Shown: in pieces, positions 15,647-37,237 of the stretch
Numbering within the stretch: position 1 is the first letter of the stretch
How the letters are laid out: every line of letters begins with the position of its first letter
DNA from: Candidatus Fermentibacteraceae bacterium
Lineage (GTDB): Bacteria > Fermentibacterota > Fermentibacteria > Fermentibacterales > JCC-6
DNA length: 44,444 nucleotides
Direction of reading: 5' to 3'
NCBI GenBank assembly: GCA_041686025.1
Contig: JAWLEP010000001.1
Coordinates: 1 to 44,444, forward strand
Made by a program: the position numbers and the translations under genes
Notes under the pieces: model-generated
What the model saw: the letters and a program-made list of their open reading frames with translations, nothing else
What the model was told of the DNA's origin: nothing
Database searches by the model: none

Positions 15647-15659
15647 TGCGCTGGTCCTT

Positions 15660-17375: not shown

Positions 17376-17411
17376 GTAAACCTCCAAGTGGTTGATACTT
17401 GAACCACTACT

Positions 17412-17439: not shown

Positions 17440-17478
17440 GGTCATTCGCCAGATCGCAGCCTCAGAAAGGGGTGCGGA

Positions 17479-21343: not shown

Positions 21344-21463
21344 GGTGCGCCTTCCCGGATCTGGGGCCCTGTCAACGGCTGGAATATAAGGCCGGTCCCT
21401 TCGGTGAAAACCCGCAGATGAACGGTATGGACGGCCGTCGCGGACGTCTCGGCCCGGACAATG

Positions 21464-21516
21464 CCATACGAACCCGAGCGGACAAATGGGAGATATGCCC
21501 ACTCGGACTCGTATGG
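21464..21516 (-). repeat. 24-bp imperfect inverted repeat (hairpin favoured on minus strand)
   Basis: Arms 21464-21487 and 21493-21516 match at 19/24; four of five mismatches become G-U pairs on the minus strand. Confidence 0.7.
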
Positions 21517-21609
21517 AATTACATGTGCCATAGTGCCTTGTAAGATCGGGTGGCCGCGGCCTCCGGCGAAGGCGTTTCCATATCAGCTCAATCGCCCCGG
21601 GGAAGGGGG

Positions 21610-21639
21610 TTGACGCCAGCGTCTCCCATGCCATCTAAT
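21610..21639 (+). promoter_or_regulatory. Candidate promoter of hydrogenase operon
   Basis: TTGACG (21610-21615) - 18 nt - TCTAAT (21634-21639), just upstream of the structured leader. Confidence 0.45.
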
Positions 21640-21886: not shown

Positions 21887-22936
21887 TTGGAACGCAGGGG
21901 CCTGCTGGATGAAAAGGGGCTTACAGCCCTGCTGGAGGTTCTGACCAGGGAGTACCGGGTTGTGGCTCCGGTTCCCCTGGAAGGTGGTGCCTACGGTCTA
22001 GCCCCGCTCTCCGAAGCGGATCCGTCCAAGGTAGACCTGGCCGGAGTACGTCCCTACCAGCCCATGAAGTCCTTCTTCCTCAAACCCCGTCAGCGGGTTG
22101 CATACGACTACCAGACCCGCGTGCCGCAGGCCGACGGGAAGCCCTTCTGCCTCCTGGGAGCAAAGGCCTGCGACCTCGAGGGAATGGCCGTGCAGGACGC
22201 GGTCTTCCTCGAGGGCGAGTTCCGCGACCCGTTCTACGGGGCGGCCCGGGAGCGCAACCTGGTGATCACCTCCGACTGCGGCTTTGCCGCCGACACCTGC
22301 TTCTGTACCGCCATGGGGGGCGCGCCCTACGCGGAGAAGGGATTCGACCTGAACATCACCGTCCTGCCCGGCAGCTGGCTGCTGGAGGCCGGCTCGTCGG
22401 CCGGGGAGAGCCTCATGGACCGGCTGGGAGAGCACGTACGGCCGGCGGACGAGGAGTCCCTGGATATACGCCGGCACCAGAGGGACCGGGTCAGCGCCGA
22501 GGTCCGCAAGGGTGTTGACGAGTCCGGCGTCCCCGACACCGGCAGGCTGGACGGCGTGATCATGAAGGCCTACGAGAGCCCGGTCTGGAAGGACGAGGCC
22601 GACCGGTGCGTCGAGTGCGGCGCCTGCAACACCGTCTGCCCCACCTGTCACTGCTTCCTCCTCTACGACCAGATGCTCCAGGCCGGGGAGGAGATGGAGA
22701 AGCTGCGGGTCTGGGACTCCTGCCTGCTGAAGGGCTTCGCCCGGGTAGCCGGGGGGGAGAATCCCCGTCCCGAGCTGTGGATGAGGCTGCGCAACAGGTT
22801 CGAGAAGAAGTTCGACTTCTTCCCGAGGACCGAGGACATATACGCTTGCACGGGATGCGGAAGGTGCATCGCGGCCTGCCCGGCCGAGATCGACATCCGC
22901 GAGGTACTCCGAAGGCTGGTGGAAGATGCGCGATAG
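21887..22936 (+). CDS. 4Fe-4S protein, sulfhydrogenase beta (HydB)/AsrA-like
   Basis: GAKACDL, CFCTAMG, CVECGACNTVCPTCHCF, R.WDSC, GGENPR, CTGCGRCIAACP. Confidence 0.9.
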   Translation: MERRGLLDEKGLTALLEVLTREYRVVAPVPLEGGAYGLAPLSEADPSKVDLAGVRPYQPMKSFFLKPRQRVAYDYQTRVPQADGKPFCLLGAKACDLEGMAVQDAVFLEGEFRDPFYGAARERNLVITSDCGFAADTCFCTAMGGAPYAEKGFDLNITVLPGSWLLEAGSSAGESLMDRLGEHVRPADEESLDIRRHQRDRVSAEVRKGVDESGVPDTGRLDGVIMKAYESPVWKDEADRCVECGACNTVCPTCHCFLLYDQMLQAGEEMEKLRVWDSCLLKGFARVAGGENPRPELWMRLRNRFEKKFDFFPRTEDIYACTGCGRCIAACPAEIDIREVLRRLVEDAR

Positions 22937-23747
22937 GAACCCCTACGGACTTGTGGAGGCGGAGGTGGAGGAGATGGTCCGGGAGACCCCCACCATCTCC
23001 ACCGTGCGGATGCGCCCCCGGGAGGCGATACCGTTCGAGCCCGGGCAGTTCATCCAGCTCACCGTACCCGGGGAGGGGGAGGCGCCCTTCACTCCCTCAT
23101 CCCACTACGCCAAGACCGATCTGATGGACGTGAGCGTGATGAAGGTGGGCCGGGTCACCGAGCGTATCCACGCCCTGCAGCCGGGAGACAAGGTGGGCCT
23201 GCGCGGTCCCTTCGGAAGCGGATACCCGCTGGAGGACTTCAAGGGCCACGAGGTCCTGGTGGTGGGCGGCGGCTGCGGGTTCGCACCGCTGAGGGCGCTG
23301 ATGTACGGCCTCTTCGACATAGTCGACGACCTCGAGCAGCTAACCTTCCGGGGAGGCTGCCGGACCCCCGGCGAGCTGGTCTTCCACGACGAGATGGAGG
23401 ACTGGAAGGACCGCGACGACCTCAACCTCCGGCTGACGGTGGACCGGGGCGACGAATCCTGGAAGGGCAACGTGGGGGTGGTGACCACCATCCTCGACGA
23501 CGTGGAGATGGACTTTCCCGACGCCATCGGAGTTGTGTGCGGTCCTCCCATCATGATGAAGTTCGCCACCATGAAGCTGCTGGAGATGGGATTCGCCGAC
23601 GAGCACATCTACCTGTCCATGGAGAAGAACATGTCCTGCGCGGTGGGCATGTGCGGTCACTGCAGGCTGGGCCCCTACTACTGCTGCACGGACGGCCCGG
23701 TCTTCCAGTACAGCCGGATCAAGGGGCTATCGGGGATATGGGACTAG
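22926..23747 (+). CDS. FAD/NAD(P)-binding 2Fe-2S subunit, sulfhydrogenase gamma (HydG)/AsrB-like
   Basis: PGQF, GEAPFT, RGPFG, GGGCGFAPLR, CGPPIMM, MSCAVGMCGHC...CTDGPVF. Confidence 0.92.
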   Translation: MRDRNPYGLVEAEVEEMVRETPTISTVRMRPREAIPFEPGQFIQLTVPGEGEAPFTPSSHYAKTDLMDVSVMKVGRVTERIHALQPGDKVGLRGPFGSGYPLEDFKGHEVLVVGGGCGFAPLRALMYGLFDIVDDLEQLTFRGGCRTPGELVFHDEMEDWKDRDDLNLRLTVDRGDESWKGNVGVVTTILDDVEMDFPDAIGVVCGPPIMMKFATMKLLEMGFADEHIYLSMEKNMSCAVGMCGHCRLGPYYCCTDGPVFQYSRIKGLSGIWD

Positions 23748-23749
23748 GC

Positions 23750-24313
23750 ATGGAGAGAGCGACGAACAGCGCCGAGCAGCTGCACCACGGCCGGCTGGAG
23801 ACCGAGCCCCCGGCCGGCCCCGACATGAGGCTCTACATCGACCTCGACATCTGCTCGGAGAAGTGCGGCGAGTGCGAGATAAGCTGCAGCTACTTCTACC
23901 ATCCGGAGAACAACGGGATAATCTCGGTGGCCGAGCTGGCCACCTACGCCCTGGTGTGCAGGCGGTGCGACGACCCCCACTGCGTGGCGGCGTGCCCGAA
24001 GGACGCCCTGGAGCAGCAGGAGGACCTCGACGACATGCTGGTCCGGCACTCCATGCGCTGCATATCCTGCCGGTCCTGCTCCCACGCCTGTCCCTACGGC
24101 ACCATCTATCCCGAGCTGGTCCCCCAGCTGGCCCACGTCTGCGACTACTGCCTTGACCGCAGGGAGGACCAGGGCGAGCCGCTGTGCATAGCCACCTGCC
24201 CGTACGACGCGCTGAAGCTGATGCCGGGCGATGCGGAGCTGGATGAGAACACGTTCCTCGTGGGCGGAAACCTGATAGTGCACTCCACGCACTGGGACAG
24301 GGAGAAGGCATGA
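23750..24313 (+). CDS. Multi-4Fe-4S ferredoxin-like subunit (HydN/CooF/DmsB-like)
   Basis: C..KCGECEISC, CRRCDDPHCVAACP, CISCRSCSHACPYG, CDYC...PLCIATCP. Confidence 0.85.
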   Translation: MERATNSAEQLHHGRLETEPPAGPDMRLYIDLDICSEKCGECEISCSYFYHPENNGIISVAELATYALVCRRCDDPHCVAACPKDALEQQEDLDDMLVRHSMRCISCRSCSHACPYGTIYPELVPQLAHVCDYCLDRREDQGEPLCIATCPYDALKLMPGDAELDENTFLVGGNLIVHSTHWDREKA

Positions 24314-25236
24314 TCGAGGCTTACTACCTAATTGCGCTGGGCTTCGGCGCCACCGCTGCCCTGGGCCTGGCCGCCAGCTGGATAGACCGCAAGGTCACGG
24401 CCAGGCTGCAGTACAGGGTGGGGCCTCCGCTGCTGCAGCCCCTCACCGACCTGGTGAAGCTGATGGGAAAGGAGACAACGGTACCCTCCACCGCCACCCG
24501 CCCGGTCTTCTTCGCCGCGCCCCTGACGGGGCTGTCGGCGGTGATGGTGGCCTCGGCGGTCGTATGGGCGGCAAACGCCAACGCCCAGTCCGGGTTCGTG
24601 GGCGACTGGATCGTGCTGATATACCTGCTGGTGATGCCGTCGCTGGCCATGATCGCCGCCGGCTTCGCTTCCGGCAATCCGGTGGCCAGCCTGGGAGCCT
24701 CCCGGGAGATGAAGCTGGTCCTCTCCTACGAGCTGCCCTTCGTCCTCGCGCTGCTGGTTCCGGTCATCCACCACCCCGACAATGCCATACGGCTGGGGGC
24801 GCTGGTGGAGATGCAGAGGGCCTCGGGAGCGGTGGCCGGCAGCCTGTCCGGCCTGCTGGCCCTGCTGGTGGTCATCCTGGTCACCCAGGCCAAGCTGGCC
24901 CTGGTACCCTTCGACATTCCCGAAGCGGAGACCGAGCTGGCCGAGGGCCCTCTGATCGAGTACTCCGGTCCTCTGCTGGGCACGTTCCGCCTGATGAGGA
25001 ACATGATGCTCTTCCTTCTGCCCTTCGTGGCCGTCACCCTGTACTGGGGGGGAGCCAGCCTCAGCGGCTGGGGCTTCCTCTGGGCCTTCCTCAAGGTGGT
25101 GGCCCTGGTTGCGGTTACAACTGTCATACGAAACACGAACCCCCGCGTTCGAATAGACCAGGCGATGCGGTTCTTCTGGGGCCCGGTTACGGTGCTGGCA
25201 GCGGCCTCGGTGGTTCTCGCCCTGGCGGGCGCATGA
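24310..25236 (+). CDS. Hydrogenase membrane anchor subunit (NuoH/HycD/MbhM-like)
   Basis: DRKVTARLQYRVGPPLLQP..D..KL..KE, GASRE, PFDIPEAETEL.EG..IEYSG, PRVRIDQ. Confidence 0.93.
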   Translation: MIEAYYLIALGFGATAALGLAASWIDRKVTARLQYRVGPPLLQPLTDLVKLMGKETTVPSTATRPVFFAAPLTGLSAVMVASAVVWAANANAQSGFVGDWIVLIYLLVMPSLAMIAAGFASGNPVASLGASREMKLVLSYELPFVLALLVPVIHHPDNAIRLGALVEMQRASGAVAGSLSGLLALLVVILVTQAKLALVPFDIPEAETELAEGPLIEYSGPLLGTFRLMRNMMLFLLPFVAVTLYWGGASLSGWGFLWAFLKVVALVAVTTVIRNTNPRVRIDQAMRFFWGPVTVLAAASVVLALAGA

Positions 25237-25258
25237 TGGAAACGGAGGTGGCCGGCTG

Positions 25259-25690
25259 ATGGGGCTCAAGCTTAAGGCGCTTCTGAAATCGCCCTGGGTT
25301 TTCCACCTCTCCACCGGCAGCTGCAACAACTGCGACATCGAGGTTCTGGACTGCCTTACGCCCAGGTTCGACATCGAGCGTTTCGGAATGCTGCTGAAGG
25401 GCAGCATCCGCCACGCCGACGTCCTTCTGGTCACCGGCTCCTGCAACCGGATGTCGGCCGAGAGGCTGAAGACCCTCTACGAGCAGGTTCCCAAGCCCTG
25501 CCTGGTGGTGGCCATAGGGGAGTGCGCGCTCTCCCGGGGGATGTTCATCCACAGCTACAACTGTCCGGTCCCGCTGGACCACATCATTCCGGTGGACGTC
25601 TACATACCCGGCTGCCCGCCGAAGCCGGAGGCGGTAATCGCGGGCGTTGTCAAGCTGATAGAGAAGGTTGGAGGCAAGAAAGGTGACTGA
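25259..25690 (+). CDS. Group 4 [NiFe]-hydrogenase small subunit (NuoB/HycG/MbhJ-like)
   Basis: GSCNNCDIE (CxxC, hydrogenase type), RHADVLLVTG, AIGECA, PVDVYIPGCPPKPEA. Confidence 0.94.
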   Translation: MGLKLKALLKSPWVFHLSTGSCNNCDIEVLDCLTPRFDIERFGMLLKGSIRHADVLLVTGSCNRMSAERLKTLYEQVPKPCLVVAIGECALSRGMFIHSYNCPVPLDHIIPVDVYIPGCPPKPEAVIAGVVKLIEKVGGKKGD

Positions 25691-26159
25691 CCGGGCCGCT
25701 GTACTTCGGGATATCACCGAGAGGTTCTCCGGCGATATCCAGCGACTGGACGACGTCTCCCACAAGCGGGTCTACATCGACATCGAGACCGGCGCGCTGG
25801 TGAAGATGGCGCTCTACCTGTTCAGGCAGGTGGGGGCCCGGTTCAACATCGCTTCCGGGGTGGACTGCCGCAGCCACATCGAGATCCTCTACCACTTCAC
25901 CCTGGAGGACATCAACCTGATGATCTCGCTGCGGGTCAGGCTGGACCGCGAGAAGCCGGTGGTGGACTCGCTGACCCCCTACATCAAGGCCACCGACTGG
26001 ATCGAGCGGGAGATGAACGAGCTGCTGGGCATAGAGTTCACGGGCCATCCCGACATGAGGCGCCTGCTGCTGGCCGATGTCTGGCCCAAGGGCGTCTACC
26101 CGCTCCGGGCGGACTACGAGGAGTGGGACGACAGCGCCGTGCGGGACAGGGGGGTGTGA
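25683..26159 (+). CDS. NuoC/MbhK-like subunit
   Basis: SGVD, EILYHF, WIEREMNELLGIEF.GHPD.RRLLL...WP...YPLR. Confidence 0.92.
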   Translation: MTDRAAVLRDITERFSGDIQRLDDVSHKRVYIDIETGALVKMALYLFRQVGARFNIASGVDCRSHIEILYHFTLEDINLMISLRVRLDREKPVVDSLTPYIKATDWIEREMNELLGIEFTGHPDMRRLLLADVWPKGVYPLRADYEEWDDSAVRDRGV

Positions 26160-27346
26160 TGGGCAAGAGGACTACCATACCGATAGGGCCGTTCCATCCC
26201 CTGCAGGAGGAGCCGGAGTTCTTTACCCTCACCGTGGAGGGCGAGCGGGTGGTGGACATCGACGTCCGGATAGGCTGGAACCACCGGGGCATCGAGAAGC
26301 TCTCCGAGCGCAAGAACTTCGACCAGAGCACCTTCGTCATCGAGCGGATCTGCGGCATCTGCTCCACGAGCCATCCCTTCGCCTACACCATGGCGGTGGA
26401 GGACGTGATGCAGCTGGAGGTACCCGACCGGGCCAAGTACATCCGCACCATCATCGCCGAGGGGGAGAGGATCCACTCCCACCTGCTGTGGGCCGGCCTG
26501 GCGGGCCACTTCCTGGGCTACAACACGGTCTTCATGTGGGTCTGGAAAGCCCGCGAGGAGATACTGGACGTGATGGAGATGCTCTCGGGCAACCGCAACA
26601 ACTACGCAATGTTCAAGCCCGGGGGCGTCCGCCGCGACATAGACGCCGACGTGATAAAGCCCTGTCTGGCCAAGCTGGACAGGATCGAGGCCACCCTGGA
26701 CCTGGTCCGCAAGGCTGTAGAGGACGACCCGGTCCTGCAGGCCAGGACCAAGGGCGTGGGGGTGCTCACCCTGCAGGACGTCATCGACTACAGCGCCCTG
26801 GGGCCCACCTCGAGGGCCTCGGGACTGGCCCGGGACGTCCGCAAGGACAGTCCCTACGCCGCATACCCCATGCTTGACTGGCAGATGATCACCACCGAGA
26901 ACGGCGACGTCTACGACAAGGTGATCCTCCGGGTGCTGGAGCTGTACGAGTCGATCTCCATCCTCAGGCAGGCCCTTCCCAACCTGCCCGGCGGGGAGAT
27001 AGACGCCAACATCAAGTCGGTGCCTCCCGGGGAGGGCGTGGGTCACGCCGAGGCTCCCCGGGGAGAGGTATTCCACTACGTGCGCAGCGACGGGACCAAC
27101 CGGCCGGTGCGCCACAAGGTCCGGGCCCCCACCTTCATGAACCTGCCCACCTACCGGGAGTCGGTGGTGGGGGAGACCATCGCCGACGCCACCATAATCC
27201 TGGCCGCCATAGACCCCTGCTACTGCTGCACCGAGAGGGTGGCGGTGGTGGACGGCCGGGGCCGCAGGCTCCACGACGGAACCGACCTCGTGGAGATGTC
27301 CCGGGCCAAGACCGAGCGGCTGAGAAGGGAGATGGGAGGGGCATGA
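26159..27346 (+). CDS. Group 4 [NiFe]-hydrogenase large (catalytic) subunit
   Basis: IGPFHP..EEP, HRGIEK, L1 ERICGICS..H, EAPRGE, R.PT..N, L2 DPCYCCTER followed by a ~35 aa cleavable tail. Confidence 0.95.
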   Translation: MGKRTTIPIGPFHPLQEEPEFFTLTVEGERVVDIDVRIGWNHRGIEKLSERKNFDQSTFVIERICGICSTSHPFAYTMAVEDVMQLEVPDRAKYIRTIIAEGERIHSHLLWAGLAGHFLGYNTVFMWVWKAREEILDVMEMLSGNRNNYAMFKPGGVRRDIDADVIKPCLAKLDRIEATLDLVRKAVEDDPVLQARTKGVGVLTLQDVIDYSALGPTSRASGLARDVRKDSPYAAYPMLDWQMITTENGDVYDKVILRVLELYESISILRQALPNLPGGEIDANIKSVPPGEGVGHAEAPRGEVFHYVRSDGTNRPVRHKVRAPTFMNLPTYRESVVGETIADATIILAAIDPCYCCTERVAVVDGRGRRLHDGTDLVEMSRAKTERLRREMGGA

Positions 27347-29001
27347 ATCTCGCAGAGCTCATGAGACTGGACACGCTCGCCATCTTCTGCGCCGCCTTCA
27401 GCGGGCTCTTCTTCCTCCTGACAACCCTGTACTCCACCGGCTTCATGAAGGGCATGAGGTCGGGCTTCCGCTACTACCTCTACCTGCTGGTCACCCTGGT
27501 GGCCACCGCAGCGGCCCTCTTCGCGGACAACGTCATACTGCTGCTGGCCCTGTGGGGGTTCCTGGGTCTGATGCTCTATCTGCTGATAGGCTTCGGCCGG
27601 GCGGCGCGGACGGCGGACACAGCCAAGAAGACCATGATAATCATCGGGGGCTCGGACGCCCTCATGCTCATGGGCCTGGGACTGGTCTGGCATCTAAGCG
27701 GCACGGATGCCCCGATATGGGCCATGCGGCTCTCCGAGCTGCGCATCCCCATAGAGGGCGGGGCCAGCACCCTGGCCTTCCTGCTGCTGGCCGCCGGCGC
27801 CCTGGCCAAGGCCGGCGCCATGCCTCTGCACACCTGGATACCGGATACGGCGGAGGACGCCCCCATACCGGTGACCGCCTACCTGCCGGCCTCCCTGGAC
27901 AAGCTGCTTGGCATCTACCTGCTGGCCAGGCTCTGCCTGGAGGTATTCGTAATGAGCCCGGCGATGAACACCGTCCTGATGGCGGTGGGCAGCTTCACCA
28001 TAGTGGCCGCGGTTATGATGGCTCTGGTGCAGCACGACCTGCGGAGGCTGCTGGGCTACCACGCGGTGAGCCAGGTTGGCTACATGGTCCTGGGCATCGG
28101 CACGGGCACCATGGTGGGGATCGCCGGAGGTCTGTTCCACATGCTGAACCACGCCATCTACAAGGCCTGCCTGTTCTACACGGGAGGCGCCGTGGTGAAG
28201 AGGGCGGGAACCGCCGACCTCAGGAAGCTGGGGGGCTACGCAAAGGTGATGCCCGTGGTGTTCACCAGCTTCCTGGTGGCCGCCCTGGCCATCTCCGGCG
28301 TACCACCCCTCAACGGTTTCGCCTCCAAGTGGATGGTCTACCAGGGCGTGATCGAGACCGGAGCGGACGGAGGCTTCATGTGGGTGGTGTGGCTGGCCGC
28401 AGCCATGATAGGCAGCGCCCTCACACTGGCCAGCTTCATGAAGCTCTCCAACGCGGTCTTCCTCGGCCAGCCGTCGAAGCCCCTGGAGAAGCGGGGCAGC
28501 GGTGCCTGGGCCGGCATACCGGCGGTGACCCTGGCGGCCCTCTGCCTGGGGTTCGGCGTTCTGGCCCAGAGGCTGCCGCTGCGCTACCTGATATTCCCCT
28601 CCATCGGCGCCGAGCCCGGCGGCCAGGGCATCTGGCAGCCGGGAATGGCCTCGGTCCTCCTGCTGGGAGGCCTGCTGGTCGGCCTGATTCTCTACCTGAT
28701 CGGAAAGGCCTGGAAGGGCGCGCGGGTGAGCAAGCCCTTCGTGGGCGGAGTCGACCTGGAGGACCACCCCGACATGAGGGTCTCCGGGGCCGACTTCTAC
28801 CTCACGGTCAGCGAGATGGGCCCGCTGAAGAGGATGTACGCGCTGGCCGAGGCCAGGGCGTTCGACATCTACGAGCAGGGAAAGCAGCTGGTGTTCGAGC
28901 TGAGCGGGGCCCTGGGCGCGGCGCACAGCGGCGTCCTCTCCCGGTACCTGGGCTGGTACCTGCTCGGCATGGCGGCGATTCTAGCTGTACTGGTGTGGTG
29001 A
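27343..29001 (+). CDS. Antiporter-like membrane subunit (NuoL/MrpA/HyfB-like)
   Basis: AKAGAMPLHTWIP, LGYHAVSQVGYM, HMLNHAIYKACLF, SGVPPLNGFASKW, C-terminal HSG.L..YL. Confidence 0.9.
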   Translation: MNLAELMRLDTLAIFCAAFSGLFFLLTTLYSTGFMKGMRSGFRYYLYLLVTLVATAAALFADNVILLLALWGFLGLMLYLLIGFGRAARTADTAKKTMIIIGGSDALMLMGLGLVWHLSGTDAPIWAMRLSELRIPIEGGASTLAFLLLAAGALAKAGAMPLHTWIPDTAEDAPIPVTAYLPASLDKLLGIYLLARLCLEVFVMSPAMNTVLMAVGSFTIVAAVMMALVQHDLRRLLGYHAVSQVGYMVLGIGTGTMVGIAGGLFHMLNHAIYKACLFYTGGAVVKRAGTADLRKLGGYAKVMPVVFTSFLVAALAISGVPPLNGFASKWMVYQGVIETGADGGFMWVVWLAAAMIGSALTLASFMKLSNAVFLGQPSKPLEKRGSGAWAGIPAVTLAALCLGFGVLAQRLPLRYLIFPSIGAEPGGQGIWQPGMASVLLLGGLLVGLILYLIGKAWKGARVSKPFVGGVDLEDHPDMRVSGADFYLTVSEMGPLKRMYALAEARAFDIYEQGKQLVFELSGALGAAHSGVLSRYLGWYLLGMAAILAVLVW

Positions 29002-29005
29002 TGAG

Positions 29006-29536
29006 ATGATTGCTCTGTACATACTGCTTTCGATGATGATACTCGGAGCTCTGGTGGCCATCGAGGTTCGCAGCCTGATCTCCTCGGTGGTGGCGGTGGG
29101 GGCGGTGGGCCTGGGGCTCTCCCTGGTCTTCCTGCTGCTGAAGGCCCCGGACGTGGCCCTCACCCAGCTGGTGGTGGAGATCATCGCCGTGATCATACTG
29201 ATCAGGGCCACCATCCGCCGCAGGCTCCCCGAGTCACCGGTGTCCGCAAGGCCCTACGGGGTCCTTCTGGGCCTGGGGTTCGCCGTCCTGCTGGTTATGG
29301 TCTCCCTGCCGGCGCTGCAGGAGATCCCCCGGCTGGGACACCCCTACATGAGGGTGGCCGGGACCTACGTGGAGAGCGGCCTGCAGGATACCGGGGCCGC
29401 CAACCTTGTGGCCTCGGTGATACTGGACTACAGGGCCTACGATACCCTGGGAGAGGCCACTGTGCTCTTCACGGCCGTGATGGGAGTCATGGCCGTGCTC
29501 CGAAACAGGGGCCTCAAGAGCGGGGAGGAGGGCTGA
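29006..29536 (+). CDS. MbhD/MbhE-like (MrpA C-terminal part) subunit
   Basis: LKAPDVALTQLVVE; GAANLVASVILDYRAYDTLGEATVLF. Confidence 0.9.
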   Translation: MIALYILLSMMILGALVAIEVRSLISSVVAVGAVGLGLSLVFLLLKAPDVALTQLVVEIIAVIILIRATIRRRLPESPVSARPYGVLLGLGFAVLLVMVSLPALQEIPRLGHPYMRVAGTYVESGLQDTGAANLVASVILDYRAYDTLGEATVLFTAVMGVMAVLRNRGLKSGEEG

Positions 29537-29537
29537 C

Positions 29538-30002
29538 ATGGCCGACAGGCCCGAAGACGGAATGTCGCTCATAGTCAAGACCGTCACCAGGCTCACCCTG
29601 GGCCTGATCCTCCTCTACGGCCTCTACATCGTCCTGCACGGCCACCTTACGCCGGGAGGCGGCTTCGCCGGCGGCGTCATCGTGGCCCTCTCGCTGGTGC
29701 ACCTGGTGCTTGCCTTCGGCGGCCGGAGCGCCTGGAAGAGGATCTCCCATTCGGGCGCCTCCCGCATGGAGGCCACCGGAGCCCTGGGATTCCTGGCCCT
29801 GGCCCTGCTGGGTCTCACCGCCGGGTTCTTCCTCTCCAACTTCCTCCCCGAAGGCAGAGCTTTCGAGCTGTTCAGCGCCGGGTCGATACCCCTGGCCAAC
29901 CTGGCCATATGCCTCAAGGTGGGGGGCGGCCTGTTCGCCGTTTTCGCCATACTGACCATCTTCACCGCCGAGACCACCTCGCCGGACGGGGGGGAGCGAT
30001 GA
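29538..30002 (+). CDS. mnhB: MnhB/MrpB (MbhF-like) subunit
   Basis: YIVLHGHLTPGGGFAGG, SAG.IP..N..I.LKV. Confidence 0.9.
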   Translation: MADRPEDGMSLIVKTVTRLTLGLILLYGLYIVLHGHLTPGGGFAGGVIVALSLVHLVLAFGGRSAWKRISHSGASRMEATGALGFLALALLGLTAGFFLSNFLPEGRAFELFSAGSIPLANLAICLKVGGGLFAVFAILTIFTAETTSPDGGER

Positions 30003-30340
30003 CGGCCTACATACTCTGCCTGATCCTTTTCGGCCTCGGCATCTACTGCGCGGTCTCCAAGCGCAACCTGATAAAGATCATCGTCGGCGTGGCCATAGCC
30101 GAGTACGCCGTGAACCTGATGTTCGTCCTGGTTGGATACAGGATGGGAGGAGTGCCCCCCATCTTCGCAGCTCCCGGGGAGGCGCAGGGCGCGATGGTCG
30201 ACCCGCTGCCCCATGCCCTGGTGCTGACCTCGATCGTGATAGGTCTGGCCACCACGGCCCTGCTGGCGGCGATAGCCATGAGGATATACCGCAAGTACGG
30301 AACCTACGATGTCAACGAGATAAGGGAGCTGAGAGGGTGA
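29999..30340 (+). CDS. mnhC: MnhC/MrpC (MbhG-like) subunit
   Basis: KRNLIKII, AVNL, MVDPLPHALVLTSIVIG, YGT. Confidence 0.92.
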   Translation: MTAYILCLILFGLGIYCAVSKRNLIKIIVGVAIAEYAVNLMFVLVGYRMGGVPPIFAAPGEAQGAMVDPLPHALVLTSIVIGLATTALLAAIAMRIYRKYGTYDVNEIRELRG

Positions 30341-31851
30341 CACACACGCTGATGCCCCTGATGATCGCGGTGCCCCTCGGAGGCGCCTTCCTGTGCGCGC
30401 TAATGGGAAAGCGAGCCAGGGCACTGCCTGACGCCATGGGATTCCTGGTGACCCTTCTCGCCGCGGCGGGAGCGGTGTACTCGGTGAGCCTCGTGAAGTC
30501 CGCGGGTCCCCTGGTCTACTCAATGGGAGGCTGGAGGGCTCCCGTGGGAATAGTGCTCTCCCTCGACGGCCTCACCTCCCTGATGCTGGTCACCGTCAAC
30601 CTGGTGGCCTTCCTGGTGGCCGTATACGCCAGAGGGTACATGGAGCGCTACACGTCCAAGAGGCTGTTCTACGGCCTCTTCCTGCTGATGCTGGCGGGGA
30701 TGAACGGAGTGGTCCTCACCGGCGATATGTTCAACCTGTTCGTATTCCTGGAGATCGCATCGGTGGCCAGCTACGCCCTGGTGGCCTTCGGCACCGGGAA
30801 GCACGAGCTGGAGGCCGCCTTCAAGTACGGCGTGATGGGAACCATCGCCTCGCTGTTCATACTGCTGGGCATCATCCTGCTCTACGCCCGCACGTCCACT
30901 CTCAACATGGCCGACATGGCCGCGCAGCTTGCCGACGGAGGGGGAGACGTGGTCCCGCTGGTCACCGGCCTGTTCCTGGCCGGATTCGGCCTGAAGGCGG
31001 CGCTGGTTCCCTTCCACGCCTGGCTTCCCGACGCCCATCCGTCGGCTCCCGCTCCCATCAGCGCCATGCTCTCGGGCGTCCTCATCAAGTCCCTGGGCGT
31101 CTACGCGCTGGTGCGGGTCCTGTACAATGTCCTGGGGGTGGCCAAAGTAACCGAAGATGGTTCACCTTTCACTCCGCTGATCGTTCTGGGCATACTGTCC
31201 ATGATGGTGGGCGTGGTGCTGGCCCTGGGCCAGTGGGACATGAAGAGGCTGCTGGCCTACCACTCCATCAGCCAGATAGGATACGTGATCCTGGCAATAG
31301 GAATAGGCACCCCGCTGGCGGTGATGGCGGGTCTGTTCCACCTGTTCAACCACTCCATCTTCAAGTCACTTCTGTTCCTCGACTCGGGCGCCCTGGAGCA
31401 CGCCACCGGCACCCGGGACCTCAGGAGGATGGCGGGGGTGGGCAGGAAGCTGCCGGTGACCTCTTCCACCACCCTGATCGCTTCGATGTCCATCGCCGGC
31501 ATACCGCCCTTCAACGGATTCTGGAGCAAGCTGCTGATCATCGTGGCGGCGGTGCAGGCCGGCCACTCCTGGAGCGCCTTCTGGGCGGTGCTGGCCAGCA
31601 TCCTCACACTGGCCTCCTTCACCAAGGTGCTGCGCTACGGGTTCCAGGGAGGCGCAAGCGAGCGGCTGCGCCAGCTGGCGGCGGTCCCGCTGTCCATGAA
31701 GGTTGCCCTGGTGCTCTTCGCCGTGATCTGCATCGGCGGGGGCCTGCTTCTGCTGCCCTCGCTGCGTGATCTCTTCCTCGGCCCCGCCGCCGACGCTCTG
31801 GCCGGCGGTACCGAGCAGCTGGGCTTCGTCCTGACGGGGGGTGCGTCATGA
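30337..31851 (+). CDS. mnhD: MnhD/MrpD (MbhH-like) antiporter subunit
   Basis: GGW..PVGI.L.LDGL, TGDMFNLFVFLEI, KAALVPFHAWLPDAHPSAP, KRLLAYHSISQ, NH..FKSLLF, GIPPFNGFWSK. Confidence 0.93.
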   Translation: MTHTLMPLMIAVPLGGAFLCALMGKRARALPDAMGFLVTLLAAAGAVYSVSLVKSAGPLVYSMGGWRAPVGIVLSLDGLTSLMLVTVNLVAFLVAVYARGYMERYTSKRLFYGLFLLMLAGMNGVVLTGDMFNLFVFLEIASVASYALVAFGTGKHELEAAFKYGVMGTIASLFILLGIILLYARTSTLNMADMAAQLADGGGDVVPLVTGLFLAGFGLKAALVPFHAWLPDAHPSAPAPISAMLSGVLIKSLGVYALVRVLYNVLGVAKVTEDGSPFTPLIVLGILSMMVGVVLALGQWDMKRLLAYHSISQIGYVILAIGIGTPLAVMAGLFHLFNHSIFKSLLFLDSGALEHATGTRDLRRMAGVGRKLPVTSSTTLIASMSIAGIPPFNGFWSKLLIIVAAVQAGHSWSAFWAVLASILTLASFTKVLRYGFQGGASERLRQLAAVPLSMKVALVLFAVICIGGGLLLLPSLRDLFLGPAADALAGGTEQLGFVLTGGAS

Positions 31852-32360
31852 GGAGCAGGATAGCCATGTTCCTGGTGGCCCTGGCCGCCTGGTGCATTCT
31901 CAGCTGGTCGGTGAGCCCCCAGCACCTGGCGGTGGGAGTGGTGGTCTCGCTGATCGTGGCGGTCTCCGTGGGGGACCTGTTCGTCAGCCGGCCCCACATG
32001 ATGACGCATCCGCTGCGCTGGCTTAACCTGATCTTCGTCTACGCGCCGCTGCTGGCCTGGGAGTGCGTGAAGGCCAACTTCGACGTGGCCTACAGGGTGC
32101 TCAACCCCGCGCTTCCGGTGAAGCCGGGAATAGTGCGCATCAGGACCTCGCTGCGGTCGGACACCGGTCTGACCTTCCTGGCCAACTCCATAACGCTTAC
32201 GCCGGGGACCATGACGGTGGACGTGGACGCCGACGAGGGGATCCTCTACATCCACTGGATCAACGTCAGCAGCGATGACCCCGCCGAACGGGCCAGTCGC
32301 ATAGCCGGGAGGTTCGAGCCCGTTCTGAGAAGGATCTTCGAGGAAGGGGGTGGAGAATGA
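31848..32360 (+). CDS. mnhE: MnhE/MrpE (MbhA-like) subunit
   Basis: KANFDVAYRVL.P, PGIV, LANSITLTPGT.TVDV, LYIHWI. Confidence 0.93.
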   Translation: MRSRIAMFLVALAAWCILSWSVSPQHLAVGVVVSLIVAVSVGDLFVSRPHMMTHPLRWLNLIFVYAPLLAWECVKANFDVAYRVLNPALPVKPGIVRIRTSLRSDTGLTFLANSITLTPGTMTVDVDADEGILYIHWINVSSDDPAERASRIAGRFEPVLRRIFEEGGGE

Positions 32361-32725
32361 GAGCAGCCAGATGGGCCCTGGGAGGAGTCGTTCTGCTGGC
32401 GGTGCTGGCCCTGATAGTATTCAGGACCTACCCGGTGGAGTTCCTGGAGAACGTAAGCGACTCCGGTTTCGCGGCCCGCGCTCTCTACATCGTGCTCCTG
32501 TCCGCCCTCCTCTGTCTCTTCCGAATCGCCAGGGGCCCCACCTCGGCGGACCGGATCATGGCCATAGACATACTGGGCATACTGATAGTGGGCTTCTGCG
32601 CCATAATGGCGGCCGTGACCGATACCGGCTGGTACCTGGACATAGGGATCGCCTGGGCGCTGCAGAGCTTCATCGCATCTCTGGCATTCTCCAAGTACCT
32701 GGAGAGGAGGCGGTTCGATGCTTAG
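32357..32725 (+). CDS. mnhF: MnhF/MrpF (MbhB-like) subunit
   Basis: RIARGPTSADRIMAID, YLDI, SFI.SLAFSKYLE. Confidence 0.9.
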   Translation: MRAARWALGGVVLLAVLALIVFRTYPVEFLENVSDSGFAARALYIVLLSALLCLFRIARGPTSADRIMAIDILGILIVGFCAIMAAVTDTGWYLDIGIAWALQSFIASLAFSKYLERRRFDA

Positions 32726-33080
32726 CATCCTCGGCAAGGTGCTCATCGGCGTCGGCCTGGGGTTCGACCTGCTGGGCTGCCTCGGCCTGGTCCGCCTGCC
32801 GGATGTCTACAACAGGCTCCAGGCTGCTACGAAGTGCGTCACCCTGGGCACCTGCAGCATTCTGCTGGGGGTGTTCTTCTACAGCGGCATGATCACCGGA
32901 ACCGGCATCAAGGCGCTGCTGTGCATCCTCTTCCTGGTGCTTACGGCCCCGGTGGCCGCCCACGCCATCTCCAAGGGCGCCCACAACGGCGGCCTTCGCA
33001 TGTGGAAGGGCTCCGTCACCGACGAGTACCTGGAGGACACGGGCAAGGGTGAGGGAGAAGGGGAGGGGGCGGCAACATGA
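32718..33080 (+). CDS. mnhG: MnhG/MrpG (MbhC-like) subunit
   Basis: GLVRLPDVYNRLQAATKCVTLG, LTAPVAAHAI. Confidence 0.93.
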   Translation: MLSILGKVLIGVGLGFDLLGCLGLVRLPDVYNRLQAATKCVTLGTCSILLGVFFYSGMITGTGIKALLCILFLVLTAPVAAHAISKGAHNGGLRMWKGSVTDEYLEDTGKGEGEGEGAAT

Positions 33081-33700
33081 GACTCCCCAAGGTAAGAGAG
33101 CTGGTGGAGGCCATAAGGGCCATCTTCGTGGGCCCCTACACCTCCCCGTTCCCCAAAGAGATGCCGCAGCCCCACCGCAACTTCCGGGGCCAGCCCGAGT
33201 TCGACCCCGAGAAGTGCGTGGGCTGTCTGGGCTGCGAGGAGATATGCCCCGTGGGGGCCATCGACCACCGCGACGAGCTCGACCGCGAGGACGGCACCCC
33301 CATGCGGGTGATGATACACTACACCGACACCTGCATCTTCTGCGGGGAGTGCGAGGCCGCCTGCATCAACGACCACCAGGGCATCGTTCTCACAGATCAG
33401 TGGGAGCTGTCGTTCTTCGACCGCGCAGAGGCCTACGAGACCATCGAGAAGGAGCTGGTGCTCTGCGAGTGCTGCGGCGAGCCGGTGGCCTGCCGCGACC
33501 ACCTGATCTGGATATCCGACCGGCTGGCCGAGCTCACCTTCTCCAACCCCACCCTCTACCTGACGAAGATGAGGGAGCTGGGAGTGGCCGACGAGAACCT
33601 GGTGAGGACGGCCATGGAGGGCTGGAGGCCCGACCGGATGAAGGTGCTCTGCGCCCGCTGCCGCCGCCAGACCACCCTCACCACGGCGGAGGACTCCTGA
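33077..33700 (+). CDS. NuoI/HycF/MbhN-like 2x[4Fe-4S] subunit
   Basis: GPYT..FP, FRG.P, CVGCLGCEEICP, CIFCGECEAAC, extra CECCG and CARCRR. Confidence 0.9.
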   Translation: MRLPKVRELVEAIRAIFVGPYTSPFPKEMPQPHRNFRGQPEFDPEKCVGCLGCEEICPVGAIDHRDELDREDGTPMRVMIHYTDTCIFCGECEAACINDHQGIVLTDQWELSFFDRAEAYETIEKELVLCECCGEPVACRDHLIWISDRLAELTFSNPTLYLTKMRELGVADENLVRTAMEGWRPDRMKVLCARCRRQTTLTTAEDS

Positions 33701-34200
33701 CCCAGGGGTCCGCCGCGGAAGAGAGACCCCTCGTAGAGGGACTGCGGGAGCTGGCGAGGGCCGGCTCCCGCGTCGTCCTTCTGGGGGTGGGGAACGCCCT
33801 GCGGGGCGATGACGGATTCGGGCCGGCTCTGGCCGGAAGGCTCGCCGGCCGCACCCGCGCAGTATGCATCGATGCCGGAACCACCCCCGAGAACCAGACC
33901 GCCCCCGTCCTGCGCGCCCGGCCGGACGCCGTGATCGTAGCGGACGCCGCCGACTTCGGCGGTGAGCCCGGGGATCTGTCGCTGATCGAGGCCGGCAGAA
34001 TCTCCGAATGCGGCGGCGCCATCACCCACTCCATGTCCCTGAAGCTGCTGGCCGACTACCTCACCGGGGAGACGGGGGCCCGGATAGCCCTGCTGGCCGT
34101 GCAGCCTGCGGACACCCGGTTCGGCAGGCCTCTGTGTGAACGGGTCTCGCAGGCCCTGGATGCTGCCGAGAGTGCTATTCTGGAGGCTCTGGAAGGCTAG
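33697..34200 (+). CDS. hycI: Hydrogenase maturation protease (HycI-like); probable CTG start
   Basis: VLLGVGNALRGDDGFG, IDAGTTPEN, DAADFGGEPG, THSMSL, AVQP. Confidence 0.9.
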   Translation: MTQGSAAEERPLVEGLRELARAGSRVVLLGVGNALRGDDGFGPALAGRLAGRTRAVCIDAGTTPENQTAPVLRARPDAVIVADAADFGGEPGDLSLIEAGRISECGGAITHSMSLKLLADYLTGETGARIALLAVQPADTRFGRPLCERVSQALDAAESAILEALEG

Positions 34201-35357
34201 AGGGCGCCCTCTGTGGTAAGGGGGAGCTCCAGGGTGAAGGTGCTGCCCTCCCCCGGCCGGCTGTCCACCCTGGCGTCCCCGCCGTGGACGTCCGCCGCCC
34301 TCTTCACAATGGACAGGCCCAGGCCGCTGCCCCTGGATTTGCCCGCGGAGGCCCGAATCCTCACGAACTCCTCGAAGAGCCGGTCCTGGTCCTCGGGGCT
34401 GATCCCGGGGCCGTTGTCCTCCACCTGGACCAGCACGCTTCCGTCCCCGCTTCTGGCCCGGACCTCGATCCGTCCGCCCTCGGGCGTGTACTTTATGGCG
34501 TTGGCCAGCAGGTTGCCCACCGCCTCCCGCACCAGGAACGCGATGCCCTGTATGGAGGGGAGGTGGGGGGGGACGTTCAGCTCCACCTTCTGGTCCTTCA
34601 TGGCGGACCGGTCGGACAGCTCCTCCACCACCTTCTCCAGTATCGCTCCCACGTCCACGGTCTTGATGCTGGAGCGCAGGTCCTCGGAGGAGTCCAGCAT
34701 GGCCAGCACCTGGAAGTCGTGGAGGAAGGAGCTCACCTCCCCCAGCCTGTCCCGGAGCCTTTCCAGGAGATGGACCTGCTGCTTGGTGAGCGGCTTGTCC
34801 ATCACCGACTCCAGGCCGTAGACAAGTGAGATGGAGGTGTTCACCGGCGAGCGCAGGTCGTGCACTGCGATCTTGAGGAAGTCCCTCTGCAGCGAGGAGA
34901 GGCTTCTAAGCTGCCGGTTGGCCTCCGCCGCCTTCCGCTCGGCGTCCCTCAACCTCTCACGGGTCCTGGAGATGGACCTGCCCATCTCCCCTGCGGCCAG
35001 GCCCACCAGCAGCACGGCCCCGGCCCGGCCGATGTCCACGTAGAGGTCGGTGGTCACGGCTCCGGAGAGGTGGAGAAGGGCGGTCTCCAGGATCTTTACG
35101 ATGGCGATTACCATGACTCCTCGCCCCCACCATATGGCGGCTATCAGTATGGGGATGTAGAGGAGGTGCGAGTATATGGAGCTCAGCCCGAGGACGAAGC
35201 GGAAGATGTATACCAGCGCCCCGTAGGCCAGGAGCATGCCCAGCAGCACCAGGGCCCTGAATACGTCCCTGGAATCGGCGGTCTGAGTGCGCGGCGTATC
35301 GCCGATGGTTCCCCTCCGGGGTTTGCGGTCGGGCAGGCTGCCCCGCAGCGGCTGCAT
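34197..35357 (-). CDS. Membrane-bound sensor histidine kinase (start uncertain)
   Basis: N-terminal TMs (YSHLLYIPILIAAIWWG), AVHDLRSP, NLLANAIKYT, DNGPGI, GSGLGLSI. Confidence 0.9.
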   Translation of the reverse strand: MQPLRGSLPDRKPRRGTIGDTPRTQTADSRDVFRALVLLGMLLAYGALVYIFRFVLGLSSIYSHLLYIPILIAAIWWGRGVMVIAIVKILETALLHLSGAVTTDLYVDIGRAGAVLLVGLAAGEMGRSISRTRERLRDAERKAAEANRQLRSLSSLQRDFLKIAVHDLRSPVNTSISLVYGLESVMDKPLTKQQVHLLERLRDRLGEVSSFLHDFQVLAMLDSSEDLRSSIKTVDVGAILEKVVEELSDRSAMKDQKVELNVPPHLPSIQGIAFLVREAVGNLLANAIKYTPEGGRIEVRARSGDGSVLVQVEDNGPGISPEDQDRLFEEFVRIRASAGKSRGSGLGLSIVKRAADVHGGDARVDSRPGEGSTFTLELPLTTEGAL

Positions 35358-35427
35358 ACCCTGAGAACACCCATGATCAGCCTAAAGAATAGGCAACGGG
35401 GATTGCCTCGGCAATGGCCTCCGGCGG

Positions 35428-37075: not shown

Positions 37076-37237
37076 CGGAGTGTCCCCTTCCCGGGAGGTC
37101 AGATGGCGGCTGACACCAATGGCTGCAGAAGATAAACGACATGTGTCCGGCGTTGTCAAGGCCCGGCGGTCTTTGGGGCGGCGGCCGGCGCTTGTATCTT
37201 TCCGACCGATAAAGGCGCATGGAAGGAGACAGCCGAT

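What the first reader, a model, noticed from the sequence alone, without database searches (positions are those of the whole stretch)
21887..34200. Hybrid NAD(P)H-linked, Mrp-coupled membrane [NiFe]-hydrogenase operon
Seen: 17 co-oriented, mostly overlapping genes encoding HydB/AsrA-like FeS, HydG/AsrB-like FAD/NAD(P), polyferredoxin, NuoH/B/C/D-like core, two antiporter-like subunits, MbhD/E, MnhB/C/E/F/G, NuoI-like and HycI. Known: HydB/HydG normally partner HydD/HydA in soluble group 3b sulfhydrogenases, or AsrC in sulfite reductase, while Mbh-type group 4 enzymes use ferredoxin. Neither HydD/HydA nor AsrC is in this operon. Inference: the diaphorase module docks on the membrane hydrogenase. 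The complex would then either spend Na+/H+ motive force to evolve H2 from NAD(P)H, or conserve energy from H2 to NAD(P)+. Automated annotation would likely mislabel it as sulfhydrogenase plus complex I.
Basis: partly seen in the sequence, partly recalled or inferred. Interest (0 to 1): 0.9.

Follow-up and report, generated by a model that had tools for sequence, protein, structure and literature searches.

The report
Hun membrane hydrogenase, likely NADH-linked
These 17 tightly packed genes are a complete copy of the already named but untested "Hun" operon, a membrane nickel-iron hydrogenase joined to sodium/proton-antiporter genes; its front end likely exchanges electrons with NADH rather than ferredoxin, and one of its two predicted proton pumps lacks a normally conserved glutamate.

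Summary
In detail: 17 co-oriented genes, gaps -23 to +22 nt, with intact [NiFe] motifs (RICGIC/DPCYCC). It is not a new kind of system. It matches the 16-subunit Hun complex (group 4g, CGIC-CYCC, AsrAB-like, no AsrC; bioRxiv 10.1101/536078) plus HycI. This scan has already reported it on other DNA (8 earlier findings shown).

hunAB lie upstream of the large subunit in 63 of 63 assessable loci from many phyla. The genome shows no AsrC and no group 3b HydA.

Against the published ferredoxin model: HunB is an intact FAD/NAD(P)/[2Fe-2S] protein with an invariant NADH-type Asp, HunC/HunP resemble HycB/HycF, and many relatives are Rex-linked.

Not found in my searches: the MbsH'-like HunH has Gly for the conserved TM5 Glu in 57 of 61 copies and usually lacks TM1-2, which suggests one working pump.

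Best reading: a reversible NADH:H+ oxidoreductase moving at most about one ion, useful at very low H2. Untested.

The parts
21887..22936 (+). hunA: HydB/AsrA-like Fe-S subunit (349 aa, 16 Cys)
   Evidence: Fer4_22; ShyB 186.8, HydB 170.3, AsrA 134 bits, all under cut-off; only PDB hit is SHI beta 9nez_B; only Fer4_22 in the genome
22926..23747 (+). hunB: FAD/NAD(P)/[2Fe-2S] subunit, HydG/AsrB/PyrK-like (273 aa); GGGCGFAP, TVD173, CGPP, four C-terminal Cys
   Evidence: motifs invariant in 59 sequences; model pLDDT 91.9, TM 0.91 to NADPH-bound SHI gamma 9nf0_C
23750..24313 (+). hunC: HydN/HycB/DmsB-type Fe-S adapter, likely 4x[4Fe-4S] (187 aa, 16 Cys)
24310..25236 (+). hunD: NuoH/MbhM-like membrane anchor
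   Evidence: PF00146; acidic residues conserved in 71 sequences
25259..25690 (+). hunE: small hydrogenase subunit (NuoB/MbhJ-like, CxxC)
25668..26159 (+). hunF: NuoC/MbhK-like subunit
   Evidence: PF00329
26159..27346 (+). hunG: group 4 [NiFe] large subunit; L1 RICGIC, L2 DPCYCC, C-terminal tail
   Evidence: top PDB hits MbhL 6cfw_L (311 bits) and HycE 7z0s_E (288.8)
27343..29001 (+). hunH: MbsH'/MrpA-like antiporter subunit lacking TM1-2; TM5 Glu replaced by Gly72; D105, K156, D186, K187, H266, K329 kept; C-terminal TM15-lateral helix-TM16
29006..29536 (+). hunI: MbhD/MbhE (MrpA C-terminal part), D49 and E58
29538..30002 (+). hunJ: MrpB/MnhB, PGGGF
29999..30340 (+). hunK: MrpC/MnhC
30337..31851 (+). 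hunL: MrpD/MbhH-like antiporter subunit with intact E139, K220, K251, K398
   Evidence: top PDB hit 6cfw_H; 58 of 58 conserved
31848..32360 (+). hunM: MrpE/MnhE
   Evidence: PF01899
32357..32725 (+). hunN: MrpF/MnhF with an extra N-terminal hydrophobic helix; D65, D71
32718..33080 (+). hunO: MrpG/MnhG
   Evidence: PF03334
33077..33700 (+). hunP: HycF/NuoI-like 2x[4Fe-4S] subunit with C-terminal CxxC...CxxC quartet
   Evidence: top PDB hit HycF 7z0s_F; quartet in 61 of 61
33697..34200 (+). hycI: hydrogenase maturation endopeptidase (start uncertain, CTG used)
   Evidence: PF01750, TIGR00072 over cut-off

Best explanation
This operon is a complete Hun-family complex: a group 4 [NiFe] hydrogenase on an MBS-like Mrp membrane arm that likely links NADH to H2 through a predicted wire HunB (FAD, [2Fe-2S]) - HunA - HunC - HunP - HunE - HunG. 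HunAB would take the place that formate dehydrogenase takes in formate hydrogenlyase, docking through HycB-like HunC on HycF-like HunP (inferred). The arm is predicted to be ordered HunD-HunH-HunL-Na+ module as in MBS. HunH has lost the TM5 Glu and TM1-2, so likely only HunL plus the Na+ module moves ions, at most about one per two electrons. I commit to the MBH/complex I sign: H2 evolution from NADH would push ions out, which is affordable only at sub-pascal H2, and inward ion flow would drive NAD+ reduction by trace H2. In this fermenter-type genome it would mainly dispose of NADH as H2 when partners keep H2 low. Shown: genes, motifs, synteny, partners not found, residue losses. Inferred: docking, NADH use, stoichiometry, direction. 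Nested odds: Hun member 0.97; NAD(H) is the physiological partner 0.7; this sign about half of that.
For: Hun match: 16 genes map letter for letter onto HunA-P as described in the text (EFGP hydrogenase, DHIKL and I-O membrane modules, CGIC-CYCC, AsrC missing). Tight linkage: 63 of 63 loci, with ABC staying with EFGP in 9 of 9 rearranged operons; HunB forms one clade (SH-aLRT 99, quick tree, 23 of 23 rows) apart from Hdr-linked Flx-type paralogues. No other partner found: no NIR_SIR domain; both other [NiFe] large subunits score as VhuA-type; 6 of 20 Hun-bearing relatives show no group 3 large subunit. NADH: G115, G116, G118, P121, D173, C205-P208 and four Cys are invariant in 59 HunB. TVD aligns with ATD/VTD of NAD-using PyrK and NfnA, not with SVT-R of NADPH-using SHI gamma; the Asp is present in 68 of 69. 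AsrABC is called NADH-linked in PMC10949509, against the Hun paper's premise. FHL-like wire: HycF's Cys quartet contacts HycB (10.1101/2022.03.21.484881), and HunP keeps the quartet in 61 of 61. Rex (NADH sensor, recalled): the gene heads 13 of 58 operons with room upstream, 10 of the 13 with a box; a box lies before hunA in 18 of 80 regions against 36 of 1600 shuffles. Membrane arm: HunH aligns to MbsH' over 516 residues (model 1-551 to chain 56-616); G72 sits at MrpA E140/MbhH E141; Gly in 57 of 61; Na+ path residues conserved.
Against: No biochemistry was found. NADH to H2 is thermodynamically tight: -16 kJ/mol at 0.1 Pa with E0' -320 mV and only -7.7 kJ/mol at NAD+/NADH = 30, against about 14.5 kJ per ion at 150 mV; ferredoxin gives -24 to -41 kJ/mol between 100 and 0.1 Pa. 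The published model is ferredoxin input. The Asp is a soft indicator: a group 3b HydG (L079) and Flx paralogues have it too. This window has no Rex box (best 6 mismatches), nor do 20 of 20 close relatives. Losing the TM5 Glu in the subunit predicted to sit between the anchor and HunL could cut coupling altogether rather than leave one pump. The genome already has Rnf and a HydABC-type [FeFe] hydrogenase for NADH disposal. The 80 loci are the best hits of at least 581 and include near kin and overlap with the 20 relatives, so counts are not independent.
Confidence: 0.45

Rival explanations
1. Same NAD(H)-linked complex with inverted sign: inward Na+/H+ flow, the native direction of Mrp protons, drives uphill H2 evolution from NADH, and H2-to-NAD+ would pump ions out.
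For: NADH to H2 is endergonic above about 1-100 Pa, by under one ion's worth at 10-1000 Pa. The arm is a complete mrpA-G set with a rewired HunH. PMC8679088 notes that MbhH elements could conduct protons in reverse. Rnf and a Na+-type V/A-ATPase ring subunit could supply the gradient (Na+ signature recalled).
Against: MBH and MBS pump out while electrons flow to the catalytic subunit, and HunH/HunL match the MBS layout. No feature seen here predicts a sign change.
Confidence: 0.2
2. Published model: reduced ferredoxin enters at HunABC, and H2 evolution pumps Na+/H+ as in MBH.
For: 10.1101/536078; ample driving force; large subunit closest to MbhL; two antiporter-like subunits suit a larger free energy (PMC7684303).
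Against: Does not explain an invariant NAD(P)-binding domain. AsrABC is described as NADH-linked. A non-bifurcating FNR-type flavin on a ferredoxin-fed wire would short-circuit ferredoxin to NAD+ (inference). Rex links in relatives.
Confidence: 0.18
3. NAD(H)-linked hydrogenase anchored on an Mrp arm but largely uncoupled: the redox arm works near equilibrium as a valve, and the arm does ion exchange or little.
For: TM5 Glu lost in 57 of 61 and TM1-2 absent in 51 of 60 HunH; the Glu140/Lys223 pair is called strictly conserved in MrpA (10.1101/2022.01.24.477492); NADH/H2 is near equilibrium at 1-100 Pa.
Against: HunH keeps D105, K156, D186, K187, H266 and K329 in 61 of 61; HunL, HunD and the Na+ path are fully conserved, which is costly to keep if uncoupled.
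Confidence: 0.12
4. HunAB are co-transcribed passengers that bind another enzyme (an orphan group 3 hydrogenase such as the C22 MvhAG-like pair, or a sulfur acceptor system).
For: The C22 hydrogenase pair has no adjacent MvhD/Hdr; the genome is 94.75% complete, so a partner could be unassembled.
Against: C22 and C49 large subunits score higher on VhuA (305.6; 269.9 partial) than on ShyA (194.9; 74), while a true 3b HydA scores 349.9 on ShyA. 6 of 20 Hun relatives show no group 3 large subunit. Linkage is 63 of 63.
Confidence: 0.05

Closest known systems
Hun Ni-Fe hydrogenase-Na+/H+ antiporter supercomplex (hunA-P; Glass et al., bioRxiv 10.1101/536078; in silico only)
   Same: 16 subunits in the same modules, AsrAB-like front end without AsrC, CGIC-CYCC large subunit, occasional molybdopterin-domain insert between hunB and hunC
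   Different: That paper proposes ferredoxin input and treats HunH as a proton pump; here the evidence favours NADH, and HunH lacks the TM5 Glu and TM1-2. This copy also has hycI.
Saganbacteria RX5A 'enigmatic' group 4 hydrogenase locus (PMC6349859)
   Same: group 4 hydrogenase + Mrp-like subunits + cooF-like + asrA/asrB proposed as an oxidoreductase module
   Different: It carries the molybdopterin-domain protein, absent here; function was likened to Mbh.
Pyrococcus furiosus MBH (group 4d, PDB 6CFW)
   Same: closest solved large subunit and MrpD-like subunit; Na+ module
   Different: MBH has one antiporter-like subunit and uses ferredoxin; no HunABC module.
Pyrococcus furiosus MBS (PDB 6U8Y)
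   Same: two antiporter-like subunits; HunH matches MbsH' including TM15-HL-TM16
   Different: MBS has no [NiFe] site; MbsH' keeps its Glu (E128) and its first two helices.
Escherichia coli formate hydrogenlyase (group 4a, PDB 7Z0S/7Z0T)
   Same: HycB-like adapter, HycF-like subunit with Cys quartet, HycE-like tail and HycI
   Different: The input here is a flavoprotein pair, not FdhF; full Mrp Na+ module.
P. furiosus SHI beta/gamma (group 3b, PDB 9NEZ/9NF0), AsrAB and Hdr-linked FlxA/B/C
   Same: HunA and HunB are homologues with the same fold
   Different: No HydA/HydD, AsrC or HdrA partner in the operon; HunB is its own clade and has Asp where SHI gamma has Thr-Arg.

Membership tests
Hun complex | 16-gene operon hunA-P | tested here: met
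   16 genes plus hycI; mapping made from the paper's text, as its figure and Table S5 are not held
Hun complex | large subunit motifs CGIC and CYCC | tested here: met
   RICGIC / DPCYCC; DPCYCC in 77 of 80 related loci
Hun complex | AsrA/AsrB-like HunAB with AsrC missing | tested here: met
Hun complex | Mrp-type P and Na modules (HunD, H-O) | tested here: met
Hun complex | HunG classed as group 4g by HydDB; direct similarity to the type protein RXG63129 | not testable with these tools
   HydDB not available and the accession was not fetched; an Atribacterota locus (L116) has 72% identical HunG and order A-H
Hun complex | ferredoxin as donor (proposed, never measured) | not testable with these tools
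   sequence evidence points to NADH
Group 3b sulfhydrogenase (HydBGDA) | HydB and HydG homologues | tested here: met
   (below the equivalog cut-offs)
Group 3b sulfhydrogenase (HydBGDA) | HydD and HydA in the operon or genome | tested here: not met
   operon large subunit is group 4; other large subunits are VhuA-type; genome 94.75% complete
Anaerobic sulfite reductase AsrABC | sirohaem subunit AsrC | tested here: not met
   TIGR02912 best 37.7 bits against cut-off 324, ferredoxin stretch only; PF01077 0 of 1 genome, 11 of 14 controls positive
MBH (group 4d) | single antiporter-like subunit, no flavin input module | tested here: not met
   two antiporter-like genes and hunABC
MBS/Mbx | MbsH plus MbsH' membrane arm with Na+ module | tested here: met
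MBS/Mbx | catalytic subunit without Ni-binding CxxC motifs | tested here: not met
   both motifs present
Formate hydrogenlyase (group 4a) | HycB-like and HycF-like relay | tested here: met
Formate hydrogenlyase (group 4a) | molybdopterin formate dehydrogenase input | tested here: not met
   none among the 17 genes; rest of the genome not searched for it
Complex I (Nuo) | NuoEFG input and a quinone-site NuoD without Ni ligands | tested here: not met

The most novel reading that the evidence does not exclude
Hun is an NADH:proton oxidoreductase, a complex I with H+ as acceptor built from an FNR-type flavin module, whose MbsH'-like subunit has been rewired stepwise (TM5 Glu to Gly, loss of TM1-2, extra helix on MrpF) so that inward ion flow drives H2 evolution from NADH. 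That would be a sign-reversed member of the complex I superfamily and a non-bifurcating way for fermenters to shed NADH as H2.
Probability: 0.2. Interest if true: 0.85.

Novelty: new member of a known kind. Interest (0 to 1): 0.4.

Why it matters
Group 4g is listed as uncharacterised in HydDB, and Hun is common: at least 581 loci in one genome collection. If NADH is the partner, energy models for Omnitrophota, Fermentibacterota, Atribacterota, Spirochaetota and others that assume ferredoxin-driven pumping need revising. The natural Glu-to-Gly state of HunH is the pump-inactivation experiment that the MBS paper only proposed. A cultured carrier, Desulfosarcina variabilis (L120), has the full operon with Gly-type HunH, so the question can be tested. 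This copy itself is ordinary for the family.

Tried and rejected

RNA-library contigs (4 of 7 listed runs laid, 3 studies): pieces bridge hunB/hunC (X2, X4), hunC/hunD (X2), hunH/hunI and hunL/hunM (X4) and hunM/hunN (X2). But they are contigs, DNA may be present (X4 covers 30 of 30 bins, X1 28), and the runs were chosen with this stretch. No claim of co-transcription or expression is made.

Promoter/terminator scan: 4 and 7 sites against 1.7 and 4.5 expected, none informative. No Rex box before this operon.

PDB search with the HunH C-terminal 162 aa gave only chance hits; the profile and fold searches answered the question instead.

Idea that the molybdopterin-insert variants use formate: weakened, because the L156 insert lacks the residues aligned to the FdhA Cys/Sec-His stretch.

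Idea that D186 arose to replace the lost Glu: it is also present in all 4 Glu-keeping copies.

Idea that HunH truncation and the HunN extra helix are one clean lineage event: they co-vary (46 of 47 against 0 of 8), but on a FastTree of HunG three full-length Spirochaetota copies nest among truncated ones, with mixed support.

The careful HunB tree did not finish; only the quick tree is cited, and long branches meet among the outgroups.

Sulfhydrogenase, Asr, MBH, MBS, FHL and complex I membership were rejected (see Membership tests).

Literature searches for later work on Hun or an NADH reading: one search gave 0 papers, only the Hun preprint plus an unrelated paper, nothing further on it, and one search did not find the SHI structure paper. 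The library lacks most subscription journals.

Full report
Observation. Seventeen genes run on the + strand from 21887 to 34200, with gaps of -23 to +22 nt and no internal stops. They are flanked by opposite-strand genes (a GGCT-like gene at 20846-21634 and a histidine kinase at 34197-35357). Pfam and NCBIfam give: HydB/AsrA-like Fe-S, HydG/AsrB-like FAD/NAD/[2Fe-2S], HydN/DmsB-like Fe-S, NuoH, B, C, D-like, antiporter-like, MbhD/E, MnhB, MnhC, antiporter-like, MnhE, F, G, HycF/NuoI-like, HycI. The NuoD-like protein has both Ni-binding motifs, RICGIC and DPCYCC, then TER and a tail as in HycE; its best solved relatives are MbhL and HycE.

Partners elsewhere in the genome (87 contigs, 94.75% complete). 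There is one Fer4_22 protein, hunA itself. The AsrC model hits only ferredoxin stretches (best 37.7 bits, cut-off 324), and no NIR_SIR domain is found (11 of 14 control genomes positive). Three [NiFe] large subunits exist: this one, one on C49 beside MvhD and HdrA/B (cut by the contig end; VhuA 269.9 bits), and one on C22 (VhuA 305.6, ShyA 194.9, HydA 135.5). A true group 3b HydA in G036 scores 349.9 on ShyA. The C22 pair has no adjacent MvhD/Hdr, so I cannot formally exclude it as a partner. But 6 of 20 Hun-bearing relatives (G013, G014, G019, G020, G028, G032) show no group 3 large subunit with this query. The genome also has Rnf, a HydABC-type [FeFe] hydrogenase, a Rex-led Mbx-like operon and a V/A-ATPase ring subunit with Na+-type residues (signature recalled).

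Synteny. Of 41 genomes searched with HunA, 21 (own included) have a 46-100% identical hit. All 20 relatives fetched have hunA-G together; 18 have all 17 genes and 2 end at contig edges. I fetched 16 of the 25 weaker (27-36%) hits: 14 sit beside HdrA and MvhD (Flx-type), 1 is a 3b operon and 1 heads a Hyf-like group 4 operon. In 63 of 63 loci with at least 4.5 kb upstream, hunA and hunB precede hunG. Of the 17 dropped, 7 still show both and 10 are cut short. L2 is DPCYCC in 77 of 80. In 9 loci the Mrp genes have moved or are not seen next to hunG, and ABC stays with EFGP in all 9; in 3 of them ABC-EFGP is contiguous with no membrane gene between. Seven of the 9 are titled Spirochaetota, so they are not independent, and the two locus sets overlap in part. 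The host is probably a Fermentibacterota organism (inference; no marker gene tested).

What it is. The preprint 10.1101/536078 (Glass et al.; I read the abstract, outline, search passages and all of section 8; figures are not held and supplements were not available) describes a 16-subunit Hun complex. HunAB are like AsrAB with AsrC missing, the HunEFGP hydrogenase is group 4g with CGIC-CYCC, there are Mrp-like P and Na modules, and some genomes have a molybdopterin-domain gene between hunB and hunC. Every point matches, including the insert in L143 and L156. PMC6349859 (passages) noted the insert-bearing variant in Saganbacteria. Eight earlier findings of this scan shown concern the same design on other genomes, seven naming Hun. 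So the operon is known in silico. No biochemistry turned up, in a library that lacks most subscription journals.

Electron input. The preprint assumes AsrAB take electrons from ferredoxin; PMC10949509 (passages) calls AsrABC NADH-linked. HunB keeps GGxGxxP, CGPP, T171/D173 and four Cys invariant in 59 sequences, and its model (pLDDT 91.9) superposes on NADPH-bound SHI gamma with TM 0.91. At the strand end that contacts the 2'-position of the nucleotide (role recalled from the FNR family), HunB has TVD like NAD-using PyrK and NfnA, whereas SHI gamma has SVT-R; 68 of 69 loci have the Asp and the other is masked. The test is soft, since L079's 3b HydG and Flx paralogues also have it. HunB is one clade in a quick tree. 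HunC is HycB/HydN-like and HunP is HycF-like. In FHL the HycF C-terminal Cys quartet contacts HycB, which carries the input enzyme (10.1101/2022.03.21.484881, passages), and HunP keeps such a quartet in 61 of 61. This gives a predicted wire HunB-A-C-P-E-G; it could not be modelled as a complex. Following a lead from earlier findings, a rex gene directly heads 13 of 58 operons with room upstream, 10 with a box at 3 or fewer mismatches to a recalled consensus. A box precedes hunA in 18 of 80 regions against 36 of 1600 shuffles. Against this: the window (6 mismatches) and all 20 close relatives have none, and Rex regulons can include ferredoxin enzymes (recalled).

Membrane arm. hunH-O follow mrpA-G order. 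HunL is MbhH/MrpD-like with E139, K220, K251 and K398 in 58 of 58, and Na+ path residues are kept (HunI D49/E58 69 of 69, HunJ F43 67 of 67, HunN D71 53 of 56). The HunH model (pLDDT 89.1) aligns to MbsH' over 516 residues, 1-551 to 56-616, the longest alignment among the 50 rows listed, and has the highest query TM-score listed (0.76). Z-scores and E-values alone rank other antiporter-like subunits first. So HunH has the TM15-helix-TM16 element that in MBS ties the arm to the redox module (PMC7684303, passages) and lacks TM1-2. Its G72 aligns with MrpA E140 and MbhH E141; the MrpA Glu140/Lys223 pair is called strictly conserved (10.1101/2022.01.24.477492, passages). Gly is found in 57 of 61 copies and Glu in 4, while D105, K156, D186, K187, H266 and K329 are invariant. 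All 4 Glu copies are full length; of 56 Gly copies besides the window, 5 are full length and 51 lack TM1-2. HunN has an extra N-terminal helix in 46 of 47 truncated-HunH loci and 0 of 8 full-length ones. The two insert-bearing, Glu-keeping loci branch deepest among HunG (FastTree 0.92 and 1.0, two outgroups) and among HunB, which suggests but does not prove stepwise loss. I did not see this in section 8 of the preprint, and a word search of earlier findings gave nothing.

Energetics. NADH to H2 yields -4.7, -10.4 and -16.1 kJ/mol at 10, 1 and 0.1 Pa with E0' -320 mV, and +3.8, -1.9 and -7.7 at NAD+/NADH = 30; one ion at 150 mV costs about 14.5 kJ. MBH moves about one ion per two electrons while evolving H2 (PMC8679088, passages). 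With that sign kept, Hun could conserve energy from NADH only at sub-pascal H2, or spend gradient to reduce NAD+ with trace H2. A disabled second pump fits a small budget. I give NAD(H) linkage 0.7, split between kept sign (about 0.35-0.4), inverted sign (0.2) and loose coupling (0.12); ferredoxin input 0.18; HunAB serving another enzyme 0.05. The 0.45 on the best explanation covers its wire and one-pump reading with the sign as its weakest step.

Verdict. A real, complete, ordinary copy of a published but untested complex, already flagged several times by this scan. Added here: the partner search, the FHL-like wiring argument, the sign problem and the degenerate HunH. Other papers seen: PMC8542988, PMC9324843 and PMC5030696 (passages; they treat 4g/Mrp or related membrane hydrogenases as ferredoxin-driven) and PMC5037454 (passages; 4g uncharacterised). 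The preprint's Table S5 and figures, which I could not see, may already show some of these variants. Interest 0.4.

Noticed in passing
L170 (G038:C11:188000-207999), locus 1119-17694, - strand: A second pairing of HydB/HydG-like genes with a group 4 hydrogenase: hydB, hydG, hycI, then Hyf-type genes (HyfB-like, fused C/D large subunit RICGIC/DPCFSC). No HunC-like gene or MnhE/F/G genes were detected. Possibly an independent NAD(P)H-linked group 4a-like enzyme.
   Followed up: partly
L001 (G000:C22:34903-42048), - strand: An MvhG/MvhA-like (group 3c-like) pair without MvhD/Hdr sits behind two roadblock genes, a small-GTPase-like gene, DUF4388 and a DnaA-like ATPase, and before a ferredoxin and hyp genes. 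Could be a signalling-linked hydrogenase.
   Followed up: partly
L002 (G000:C7:30576-41908), - strand: Rex-led Mrp-Mbx-like operon: NuoD-like subunit without Ni motifs and a NuoI-GltD fusion (PRK13984-like), so a second membrane complex with a possible NAD(P)H module; Rex box with 2 mismatches upstream.
   Followed up: partly
L169 (G000:C49:1-15263): HdrCBA-MvhD, an Fe-S gene and a fumarate-reductase-like flavoprotein, then mvhG-mvhA (cut by the contig end). A divergent cluster holds a second MvhD-containing fusion and a similar flavoprotein.
   Followed up: partly
L143:1986-3722 and L156:2249-4024: FdhA-like molybdopterin-domain protein between hunB and hunC; in L156 it lacks the residues aligned to the Cys/Sec-His stretch, so likely a scaffold. 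Both loci keep the HunH Glu.
   Followed up: partly
L146: A second group 4 hydrogenase gene set lies directly upstream of hunA.
   Followed up: no
L106, L144 (between hunB and hunC): Unrelated small ORFs (about 120 and 160 aa) are inserted inside the operon.
   Followed up: no
L127: Operon broken by many frameshifts, probably assembly errors.
   Followed up: no
window 34197-37684: Convergent histidine kinase (HATPase_c), O-methyltransferase and PAS-domain gene downstream; no link to the operon was seen in relatives by the probes used.
   Followed up: no
and 75 tallies: Hun is patchy among relatives: no high-identity HunA hit in the six genomes of genus g9 or the five of g12. G022 has hunD(part)-P and hycI at a contig end with no hunA found.
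   Followed up: partly
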